Of a DNA stretch of 64,000 bases, positions 3,001-4,651 are shown one piece after another. Position 1 is the first letter of the stretch; every line of letters starts with the position of its first letter. The position numbers were made by a program. The DNA is from Escherichia coli (lineage in GTDB: Bacteria > Pseudomonadota > Gammaproteobacteria > Enterobacterales > Enterobacteriaceae): NCBI RefSeq assembly GCF_030013205.1, contig NZ_CP122648.1, one strand, 5' to 3'.

Positions 3001-4651
3001 GTGGTGTGCGAGTCAGTACCAACGAGTGTATCCGGATAAGCAATCCATTCACCGTCCTGCAATTCGCTCCACACTGCTTTGCCGAGATATTCGAGGTTAA
3101 CCTGATGGCAAATGCCTGTGCCTGGCGGCACGACGCTAAAACGACTGAACGCCTGCTTCCCCCATTTCAGGAAGACATAACGTTCGTGGTTGCGCTCCAT
3201 TTCCAGGCGTACGTTTTCTTCAAATGCCTCATCATCACCAAAACGATCGACGGTCACCGAGTGGTCAATGACCAGGTCGACCGGTGAGAGCGGGTTAACC
3301 TTTGCAGTATCGCCGCCGAGGCGTTTAACCGCTTCGCGCATTGCCGCCAGATCAACAACGGCAGGTACGCCGGTAAAGTCCTGCATCAGCACCCTTGCCG
3401 GGCGGTAGGCAATTTCACGGTCAGCATGGGCATTTTTCAGCCATCCCGCCAGCGCGTAGATATCCTCTTCGGTAACCGAGTTACCATCCTGCCAGCGCAG
3501 CAGGTTTTCGAGCAAAACTTTGAGTGACTTAGGCAAACGGGTGATATCGCCCAGTGATTTGGCAGCAAGCGGCAGGCTGTAGTAGTGGTAAGTTTTATCT
3601 TTGGCCTGCAACGTGTCCTTACTGGCTTCTCGTAGGGTTGACGACATAGCTCCTCCTTAATGACAGGGTTGCGAAGCCCTGATTCTCTTCAGGGTGAATA
3701 TTAAAGATAACACAAACATCGCGTAACGATTTGATAACAACCCAAATTGATAAAAGAGGAGAAACCTTGTGGCAAAGCAAATGAAAACCCCGCCGCAGCG
3801 GGGTCAGGGATCAGTGAGTAATGATCCAGAGGAGTTCGGCCCAGAAGAGCATCGACAGAGAAAATGCGCCCATCCAGGACCAATATTTCATATTTGTGTT
3901 GATCATAGGCTACACCTTTAACGGTTATTACTTTGTGTTGAGATAACTCAACCTGTTATTGCTGCGGTGTATTAAAAGCCCTTTAATTCATTAAAAATGG
4001 GTAATAAGAATGATGATAATTATTGTTTCGGCTGATCATCTTCAGCAAACAGTTCTATAAAGGCTTGCTGCTGCGATGTTAGTTGCCAGTCGTCTGGAAT
4101 AACGACGGAACATTCCCGTTTCGTTTCTGGTTCATCATCACTTTGCTGACATAATGGTGACGACTCCAGTTGCTCCTGACCGACCATAGTTATCCCCACA
4201 CTTTCCAAATCAGCAGTGCGACAACCACCCAGAAAAGAGCAGAACCAAGAAATACCGCCAGCCAGGCTTTGCGTTTTAATTCAGGGTCCCGGCGGGGTTC
4301 CTGATTTCCAGAAGGCATTGCTAACCTCATATAATCGGCATCACTTATCAGCAAGACGTTGAACGATTGGTGTAATTAATCATACGATGAGACAAATCCT
4401 AAAGAAACTTTAGTCAAAAATCCAGCGAATTTACGAATCGTCTCCAGTGAATAATTCAATCTTTTGACCTGAAATAGATATTTGAAAACTGGAGTTTGCG
4501 AGGCGGGTAATTAGACACTACTTTACAGGTAATTTACCCTATAAATATGAGGGATAAAAATATTGTGCACGGTATACAAATAAGCAACAAAAGAGAATAT
4601 ATTCCGGCACCTTCGCTACATAAAAGGTGCCGAAAATAACGCAAGAAATTA

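What the first reader, a model, noticed from the sequence alone, without database searches (positions are those of the whole stretch)
3784..3906. Unannotated-looking small hydrophobic ORF with its own terminator upstream of acnA
A 31-codon ORF (MINTNMKYWSWMGAFSLSMLFWAELLWIITH) with an AAGGTG-like SD is followed by a GC hairpin plus T-run, giving it the look of an independent small-membrane-protein transcription unit next to ymiA-yciX.
Basis: seen in the sequence. Interest (0 to 1): 0.25.

Follow-up and report, generated by a model that had tools for sequence, protein, structure and literature searches.

The report
Known small membrane protein gene ymiC
The 31-codon ORF is real, but it is the already annotated and experimentally validated E. 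coli gene ymiC, the last gene of the low-magnesium-induced ymiA-yciX-ymiC operon just upstream of acnA, so the finding is ordinary.

Summary
On the minus strand there is a 31-codon ORF (3811-3906), an AAGGTG Shine-Dalgarno 6 nt before the ATG, and a GC hairpin plus T-run starting 5 nt after the stop codon.

It is not unannotated. It is ymiC (K-12 b4741, WP_001310756.1). It matches NCBIfam NF041484 and Pfam PF23694, and 5421 of 5426 complete E. coli genomes carry it.

Published work shows the protein by chromosomal SPA tagging and by ribosome profiling. It also reports induction by low Mg2+ dependent on PhoQP, and membrane localisation. No deletion or overexpression phenotype was seen.

My comparison of 41 Enterobacteriaceae loci shows:
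- fixed cysB-ymiA-yciX-ymiC-acnA synteny;
- a frame open only for ymiC, in 40 of 40 loci;
- pN/pS of 0.46 in the ymiC frame.

The "independent transcription unit" reading is not supported. Published dRNA-seq and reporter data find no promoter of its own.

The terminator is real in this strain but polymorphic. K-12 has an interrupted U-tract. About 21% of E. coli genomes carry a 14-nt deletion that removes the hairpin.

Novelty: already known. Interest is low.

The parts
3811..3906 (-). ymiC coding sequence (31 codons plus TGA): small membrane protein YmiC
   Evidence: ORF list. RefSeq annotation ymiC, WP_001310756.1. K-12 b4741 at 1335572-1335667. NCBIfam NF041484 at 66.3 bits against a cut-off of 42. 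Pfam PF23694 at 87.5 bits against a cut-off of 27. Frame conservation.
3913..3918 (-). Shine-Dalgarno AAGGTG, 6-nt spacer to the ATG (K-12 allele: AGGGTG)
   Evidence: Sequence. Allele comparison. A GGTG/GAGT-type purine block sits at the same place in 39 aligned loci.
3786..3805 (-). Terminator hairpin GACCCCGC-TGCG-GCGGGGTT, beginning 5 nt after the stop codon
   Evidence: A hairpin plus U-tract was found within 80 nt of the stop in 34 of 40 loci, mostly 4-9 nt after it, with different stem sequences.
3776..3785 (-). T-rich tail TTCATTTGCT of the terminator (four consecutive T at 3787-3784)
   Evidence: K-12 and O157 carry TTGTCATTTG instead. A 14-nt deletion removes the 3' arm and the tail in 1142 of 5426 E. 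coli genomes.
3937..3952 (-). Leader hairpin GTTGAG-TTAT-CTCAAC, about 30 nt upstream of the ATG
   Evidence: It is present at the same position with 32 distinct stem sequences in other genera. Mean folding z is -2.53 against -0.64 for a control segment. It is the inner helix of the Rfam STnc180 consensus.
3957..3971 (-). Conserved leader motif TACACCGCAGCAATA (consensus TACAC-N1-3-CAGCAATA); function unknown
   Evidence: Nearly invariant columns in alignments A1 and A2. Listed per locus.
3777..3979 (-). Match to Rfam RF02079 STnc180 (the ymiC leader, ORF and terminator read as an RNA family)
   Evidence: 201.8 bits against a gathering score of 50, full-length 1-208. Sittka 2008 saw 500-2000 nt bands and called it a likely processed mRNA.
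4020..4187 (-). yciX, the upstream gene of the operon
   Evidence: RefSeq annotation mapped from L001. Syntenic in 40 of the 41 Enterobacteriaceae loci.
4190..4330 (-). ymiA, first gene of the ymiA-yciX-ymiC operon
   Evidence: RefSeq annotation. NCBIfam NF000536 and Pfam PF22868. Operon assignment and PhoQ-dependent promoter upstream of ymiA.
972..3647 (-). acnA (aconitate hydratase A), the downstream gene; its ATG is 164 nt after the ymiC stop codon

Best explanation
This is ymiC, a known and translated gene for a 31-residue single-pass inner-membrane protein.

Shown (published data and analyses here):
- It is translated from its own Shine-Dalgarno sequence.
- It is the third cistron of the ymiA-yciX-ymiC mRNA, whose promoter lies upstream of ymiA and is switched on by low Mg2+ in a PhoQ/PhoP-dependent way.
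- It has no promoter of its own.
- A GFP fusion localises to the membrane.

Inferred:
- In this strain the transcript ends at an intrinsic terminator that starts 5 nt after the stop codon. That terminator separates the operon from acnA, which has its own proximal promoter.
- The protein has a short N-terminus (K7) facing the cytoplasm, followed by a Trp-rich transmembrane helix: KYWSW-GAF--S-LFW-(E/Q)L-W.
- By analogy with other small membrane proteins induced by low Mg2+, it most likely binds and tunes a larger membrane protein during Mg2+ limitation. No partner or phenotype is known.
For: Identity:
- RefSeq and K-12 annotation, and a protein identical to K-12 YmiC.
- NCBIfam equivalog and Pfam family, both above their cut-offs.

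Translation:
- A chromosomal SPA tag gives a band, and a signal is seen in tetracycline ribosome profiling.
- Ribosome profiling under low Mg2+.

Regulation and operon:
- PhoQ-dependent reporter activity upstream of ymiA and negligible activity just upstream of ymiC.
- No independent TSS in dRNA-seq.
- STnc180 probes detect 500-2000 nt RNAs.

Membrane:
- GFP-YmiC sits at the cell periphery.
- The best 19-residue hydropathy window averages 1.54, residues 12-30.

Selection on the protein:
- Synteny holds in the 41 Enterobacteriaceae loci.
- Only this frame is open in 40 of 40 loci.
- pN/pS is 0.455, with invariant K, Y, W, W, G, A, F, S, W.
- The same protein accession appears in six divergent E. 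coli strains while the flanking DNA varies.

Terminator.
Against: - Function is not established. Deletion and overexpression gave no growth or morphology phenotype under low Mg2+.
- The terminator is not a fixed feature. K-12 has an interrupted U-tract, and about 21% of E. coli genomes lack the hairpin.
- I found no Term-seq 3' end at the K-12 terminator in the held part of the Adams et al. supplements. Those files may be truncated.
- A sigmaS-dependent acnA P1 start about 407 bp upstream of acnA would lie inside yciX, near window 4054. If real, it would be a second, internal source of ymiC transcripts. This rests on my memory of Cunningham, Gruer and Guest 1997; I could not retrieve the paper.
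- I found no strong PhoP box upstream of ymiA, so PhoP control may be indirect.
Confidence: 0.9

Rival explanations
1. One reading: ymiC is an independent transcription unit with its own promoter in the yciX-ymiC spacer, its own SD and its own terminator.
For: - Own SD and terminator.
- The Rfam family STnc180 delimits a roughly 205-nt unit, 3777-3979, that starts 73 nt upstream of the ATG.
- The spacer contains a strongly conserved motif and A/T-rich, -10-like strings.
- A sigmaS-dependent acnA P1 start inside yciX is recalled from the literature. I could not verify it here.
Against: - dRNA-seq shows no independent promoter.
- The reporter for the region immediately upstream of ymiC had negligible activity.
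- STnc180 gave 500-2000 nt bands, not a roughly 200-nt RNA.
- The consensus promoter scan found no minus-strand promoter in the spacer.
Confidence: 0.07
2. ymiC acts mainly as an upstream ORF (leader) for acnA. Ribosomes finishing at a stop codon only 5 nt from the terminator stem would hinder hairpin formation. Translation of ymiC would then set how much upstream transcription (PhoPQ- or sigmaS-driven) reads through into acnA.
For: - Adams et al. list ymiC-acnA among candidate uORF-dependent arrangements.
- The stem starts 4-9 nt after the stop in most genera.
- Natural alleles weaken or delete the terminator while the ORF stays intact.
- acnA is reported as PhoP-influenced in Salmonella.
Against: - The amino-acid sequence is under purifying selection and the protein localises to the membrane, which a pure leader would not need.
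- No alternative antiterminator pairing appears in the MFE or centroid folds.
- The 3' end that Adams et al. actually recorded is at K-12 1335835, 4 nt into acnA. It is not at the ymiC terminator, and it is not Rho-dependent.
- acnA has its own proximal promoter region downstream of the terminator (P2 from memory).
- A stop codon close to a terminator is common at ordinary gene ends.
Confidence: 0.12
3. The locus is primarily a non-coding, Hfq-associated sRNA (STnc180), and the ORF is incidental.
For: - Full-length Rfam RF02079 match at 201.8 bits.
- STnc180 was listed among the candidate sRNAs of the Salmonella Hfq deep-sequencing study.
- Conserved leader motif and covarying hairpin.
Against: - No discrete small RNA was seen on northern blots; the authors called it a likely processed mRNA.
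- The ORF is translated and its frame is conserved.
- The coding part of the Rfam alignment shows most variation at third codon positions.
Confidence: 0.03
4. Chance ORF with a fortuitous SD and hairpin.
For: Short ORFs are abundant: 57 of at least 20 aa in 3 kb.
Against: All the conservation, family and experimental evidence above.
Confidence: 0.005

Closest known systems
YmiC of E. coli K-12 MG1655 (b4741; NCBIfam NF041484; Pfam PF23694)
   Same: The protein sequence is identical, with the same neighbours (yciX upstream, acnA downstream) and the same length.
   Different: Only flanking and synonymous DNA differs. The window has AAAGGTG against K-12 AAGGGTG in the SD, one synonymous change, and an intact UUUU tract where K-12 has UUGU.
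Low-Mg2+-induced small membrane proteins (MgrB, MgtS, PmrR; also YmiA, YoaI, YdgU)
   Same: Under 50 aa, one predicted transmembrane helix, induced by low Mg2+, membrane-localised.
   Different: No sequence relationship was tested or claimed. Unlike MgrB, MgtS and PmrR, YmiC has no known partner and no deletion or overexpression phenotype. 'Works like' is inference only.
Rfam RF02079 STnc180 (Salmonella candidate sRNA)
   Same: The window matches the whole model, including the leader hairpin and the terminator helix.
   Different: The family describes as RNA what is in fact the ymiC cistron of an mRNA. The original study saw only 500-2000 nt species.
uORF/leader arrangements with premature 3' ends (e.g. 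mdtU-mdtJI in Adams et al. 2021)
   Same: A small translated ORF lies upstream of a larger gene on the same strand, with an RNA 3' end less than 200 nt downstream.
   Different: No demonstrated coupling. The peptide is a conserved membrane protein. The mapped 3' end is at the acnA start codon rather than at the ymiC terminator.

Membership tests
YmiC (NCBIfam NF041484 equivalog / Pfam PF23694) | HMM score above the curated cut-off over the full length | tested here: met
   NF041484 scores 66.3 bits against a cut-off of 42, residues 3-31. PF23694 scores 87.5 bits against a cut-off of 27, residues 1-31.
YmiC (NCBIfam NF041484 equivalog / Pfam PF23694) | Genomic position between yciX and acnA, on the same strand | tested here: met
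   Window annotation transfer. K-12 layout. The same synteny holds in the Enterobacteriaceae loci whose flanks are held; yciX was undetected in one.
YmiC (NCBIfam NF041484 equivalog / Pfam PF23694) | Reading frame maintained under purifying selection | tested here: met
   Open in 40 of 40 loci; the other five frames are open in 10-29 of 40. pN/pS is 0.455 against 0.88 and 1.88.
YmiC (NCBIfam NF041484 equivalog / Pfam PF23694) | Protein is actually made and is membrane-associated | not testable with these tools
   Literature for K-12 only: SPA-tag immunoblot and TetRP signal; ribosome profiling and peripheral GFP-YmiC fluorescence.
Intrinsic (Rho-independent) terminator | G+C-rich stem-loop immediately followed by a U-tract | tested here: met
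   8-bp stem with 6 G-C pairs, a 4-nt loop and tail UUCAUUUGCU. The hairpin has dG of -15.9 kcal/mol.
Intrinsic (Rho-independent) terminator | Produces an RNA 3' end in vivo | tested here: inconclusive
   No 3' end at K-12 13356xx-13357xx in the held Term-seq supplements. The files may be cut, and K-12 carries the UUGU allele.
Rfam RF02079 STnc180 | Covariance-model score above the gathering threshold | tested here: met
   201.8 bits against 50, model positions 1-208.
Rfam RF02079 STnc180 | Exists as a discrete small regulatory RNA | not testable with these tools
   Sittka et al. 2008 detected only 500-2000 nt species and called them likely processed mRNA.
Independent transcription unit (own promoter) | A transcription start between yciX and ymiC | tested here: not met
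   No minus-strand sigma70-like site in the scan. Published dRNA-seq shows no independent promoter, and the reporter shows negligible activity.
Leader-peptide/uORF attenuator | Alternative (antiterminator) pairing that competes with the terminator | tested here: not met
   The terminator helix is present in the MFE and centroid of both the 66-nt and the 205-nt folds, and no competing helix appears.
Leader-peptide/uORF attenuator | Translation of the ORF changes expression of the downstream gene | not testable with these tools
   Only suggested as a candidate by Adams et al..

The most novel reading that the evidence does not exclude
The ymiC stop codon and the terminator 5 nt behind it may form a leaky, translation-sensitive insulator. 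It would set how much ymiA-promoter (low Mg2+/PhoPQ) or upstream sigmaS-driven transcription runs on into acnA.

E. coli lineages would then have re-tuned this link through three natural alleles:
- an intact terminator, as in this window;
- an interrupted U-tract, as in K-12 and O157;
- a 14-nt deletion of the hairpin, in about 21% of complete genomes.

The invariant leader motif and its covarying hairpin upstream of ymiC would be a further post-transcriptional control point.
Probability: 0.15. Interest if true: 0.4.

Novelty: already known. Interest (0 to 1): 0.08.

Why it matters
As a discovery it does not matter. ymiC has been named since 2018, sits in the reference annotation, and has curated family models. 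The value here is a clean negative: a sequence-only reader correctly recognised a real small membrane protein gene but wrongly judged it unannotated and self-contained.

Two side results may interest people working on small proteins or on acnA regulation:
- The protein is invariant across E. coli while its terminator is degenerate in K-12 and deleted in roughly a fifth of genomes. This is a ready-made natural experiment on read-through into acnA.
- The leader carries a strongly conserved motif and a covarying hairpin of unknown role.

Tried and rejected
I used a degenerate DNA pattern on genome contigs instead. It returned 48 loci, of which 41 were usable Enterobacteriaceae loci. The rest were chance hits in unrelated taxa, plus one 454-nt contaminant contig.
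- RNAalifold on the 330-column alignment A1 returned no structure. MAFFT puts the variable hairpins one column out of register between clades. I replaced it with per-sequence hairpin detection and shuffle z-scores.
- I searched the Adams et al. supplements for a 3' end at the ymiC terminator and found none. The only nearby 3' end is at the acnA start codon.
- I tried to retrieve the acnA P1/P2 promoter paper to verify the -407 start. It is not in the library, so that point stays marked as memory.
- I looked for a PhoP box upstream of ymiA. None scored 9/10 or better, and the only 8/10 match is in reverse orientation.
- I tested the antisense 50-aa ORF (3769-3921 +) as the 'real' gene and rejected it. 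Antisense frames are open in only 11-26 of 40 loci.
- The long-range SD-sequestering stem in the Rfam consensus (ACACC with GGUGU) is absent from the MFE and centroid folds of the 205-nt window RNA. By eye, in alignment A2 the 5' motif stays TACAC where the SD changes to GAGT or GGTA; I ran no formal covariation test.
- No PDB relative was found. YciX has no Pfam or NCBIfam family.

Full report
**1. Observation**

The window carries a 31-codon ORF on the minus strand at 3811..3906.

- Reading the minus strand, AAGGTG (3918..3913) precedes the ATG by a 6-nt spacer.
- Five nucleotides after the TGA comes the hairpin GACCCCGC-TGCG-GCGGGGTT (3805..3786), followed by TTCATTTGCT.
- The hairpin is in the MFE and centroid structures of 52-, 66- and 205-nt folds.

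**2. Identity**

A megablast of 3640-4400 against 5,426 complete E. coli genomes hit 5,421 of them. Every listed row carries the annotation 'ymiC: small membrane protein YmiC' between yciX and acnA.

- The best record annotates the ORF as ymiC, WP_001310756.1.
- K-12 MG1655 has it as b4741 at 1335572-1335667.
- The peptide passes the NCBIfam equivalog NF041484 (66.3 bits, cut-off 42) and Pfam PF23694 'YmiC-like' (87.5 bits, cut-off 27).
- No PDB chain is related.

**3. What is published**

- VanOrsdel et al. 2018 (PMC6001520) named ymiC after detecting a chromosomally SPA-tagged product. They noted that it was already a positive in tetracycline-inhibited ribosome profiling.
- The YoaI preprint (PMC11429745) places YmiC among 17 small proteins induced by low Mg2+. 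It finds PhoQ-dependent reporter activity for the region upstream of ymiA-yciX-ymiC and 'negligible activity' for the region immediately upstream of the sORF. GFP-YmiC is at the cell periphery. Deletion and overexpression have no effect.
- Adams et al. 2021 (PMC7815308) list ymiC-acnA among uncharacterised potential uORFs with a 3' end less than 200 nt downstream. In their tables that 3' end is K-12 1335835, which is window 3643. It lies 4 nt into acnA and is not Rho-dependent. I found no 3' end at the ymiC terminator itself in the held part of the supplements.

**4. An RNA-family alias**

Rfam RF02079 (STnc180) matches 3777..3979 (-) end to end at 201.8 bits. The family is therefore the ymiC leader, ORF and terminator.

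STnc180 was a candidate sRNA in the Salmonella Hfq deep-sequencing study. That study saw only 500-2000 nt bands for it and called them likely processed mRNA. This fits a ymiA-yciX-ymiC mRNA of roughly 0.6 kb, or longer read-through species.

**5. Own comparative test**

I therefore scanned the species-representative genome collection with a degenerate pattern for KYWxWxGAF.

- 41 Enterobacteriaceae loci came back. They span Escherichia, Citrobacter, Enterobacter, Lelliottia, Leclercia, Kosakonia, Trabulsiella, Cedecea, Siccibacter, Franconibacter, Pluralibacter, Buttiauxella and others. A few chance hits elsewhere also appeared.
- Wherever the flanks are held, the loci show cysB-ymiA-yciX-ymiC-acnA in the same order and orientation; yciX was undetected in one MAG.
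- From KYW to the stop the length is exactly 26 codons in 40 of 40 complete loci.
- K, Y, W, W, G, A, F, S and W are invariant. Outside the columns fixed by the search pattern, pN/pS is 0.455, against 0.88 and 1.88 in the two shifted frames.
- Only the ymiC frame is open in all 40 loci. The other five frames, including the antisense 50-aa ORF, are open in 10-29.
- Within E. coli, six strains sampled across the identity range all encode the same protein accession.

**6. Transcription architecture**

The own SD is shown. The own promoter is not supported: no site in the scan, no independent promoter in dRNA-seq, and negligible reporter activity.

From memory, Cunningham, Gruer and Guest (1997) mapped a sigmaS-dependent acnA P1 start about 407 bp upstream of acnA. 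That would be near window 4054, inside yciX, and would also transcribe ymiC. I could not retrieve the paper, so this stays an unverified caveat.

The terminator is conserved in kind. 34 of 40 loci have a hairpin plus U-tract within 80 nt of the stop, mostly 4-9 nt after it. Their stems differ (CCCCGC/GCGGGG, CCTCGC/GCGAGG, CCCGGC/GCCGGG and others), which indicates selection on structure.

Within E. coli, however, the terminator is polymorphic:
- This window has GGGGUUUUCAUUUG.
- K-12, O157 and others have GGGGUUGUCAUUUG.
- Some strains have stem mismatches.
- One allele has lost 14 nt, comprising the 3' arm and the U-tract. The junction sequence of that allele is found contiguously in 1,142 of 5,426 genomes, or 21%. 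It folds to only -4.7 kcal/mol with z of 0.19.

So 'its own terminator' is true for this strain but is not a constant property of the gene.

**7. Leader**

Between yciX and ymiC lies a nearly invariant motif, TACAC-N1-3-CAGCAATA (window 3971..3957). It is followed 7-12 nt later by a hairpin (3952..3937).

- The hairpin's position is conserved while its stem sequence changes: 32 distinct stems.
- Its mean folding z is -2.53, against -0.64 for a control segment.
- It corresponds to the inner helix of the Rfam consensus.
- The outer Rfam helix, which would sequester the SD, is absent from the MFE and centroid folds of the 205-nt window RNA. By eye it does not co-vary in alignment A2 either; I ran no formal covariation test.

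The role of the motif is unknown. It could be a processing site, an Hfq or sRNA site, or an mRNA stabiliser.

**8. Mechanism, with confidence**

- Shown by others and consistent with my analyses: ymiC is translated, is membrane-localised, is induced by low Mg2+ via PhoQP, and is co-transcribed with ymiA-yciX.
- Inferred: an N-in single-pass topology, and action by binding a larger membrane protein, as other small membrane proteins induced by low Mg2+ do. I put about 0.4 on that functional mode, given the absence of any phenotype.
- The uORF/insulator reading, in which translation and terminator strength set read-through into acnA, is not excluded. I give it about 0.12-0.15. The conserved peptide and the lack of an antiterminator argue against a pure leader.

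**9. Verdict**

The finding is a correct sighting of an already known, annotated and experimentally validated gene. Novelty: already known. Interest is low.

Noticed in passing
window 3776-3805 (-); L056 171-190; L050 (K-12 1335671-1335700): The ymiC terminator is polymorphic within E. coli although the protein is invariant. K-12 and O157 have an interrupted U-tract (UUGU). A 14-nt deletion that removes the 3' arm and the U-tract is present in 1142 of 5426 complete genomes, about 21%.
   Followed up: yes
window 3937-3971 (-): A nearly invariant leader motif, TACAC-N1-3-CAGCAATA, is followed by a hairpin. The hairpin's stem sequence differs between genera (32 distinct stems) while its position is kept. 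Its function is unknown.
   Followed up: partly
L051 1704-2561 (E. coli EC261, NZ_AP027423.1): An IS1A element is inserted inside ymiC, splitting it into two small annotated fragments. This is a rare natural knockout.
   Followed up: no
L010 (Terrisporobacter mayombei DSM 6539 contig, 454 nt, coverage 1.33): This contig encodes a YmiC identical to the E. coli protein. It is almost certainly E. coli contamination in a Firmicute assembly.
   Followed up: no
window 3643-3681 (-): The acnA 5' UTR has a hairpin CAGGGCTTCGCAACCCTG just before the SD. Adams et al. record a Rho-independent RNA 3' end at K-12 1335835, which is window 3643, 4 nt into acnA.
   Followed up: partly
window 3702-3718 (-): The sequence TGTTTGTGTTATCTTTA was reported as a PhoP-binding site in the Salmonella acnA promoter. 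It is present unchanged here, between the ymiC terminator and acnA. It matches the PhoP direct-repeat consensus at only 8 of 10 positions.
   Followed up: partly
window 4190-4354 (-): The longest ymiA ORF starts at a TTG (54 aa), whereas RefSeq starts it at 4330 (46 aa). The TetRP paper also flags the ymiA/yciX start sites as disputed.
   Followed up: no
L002, L006, L015, L036 (Cedecea and 'Enterobacter sp. Ag1'-type loci): This clade has Arg instead of the otherwise conserved Trp27. It has no convincing terminator within 80 nt of the stop, and a longer ymiC-acnA spacer of 229-285 nt.
   Followed up: no
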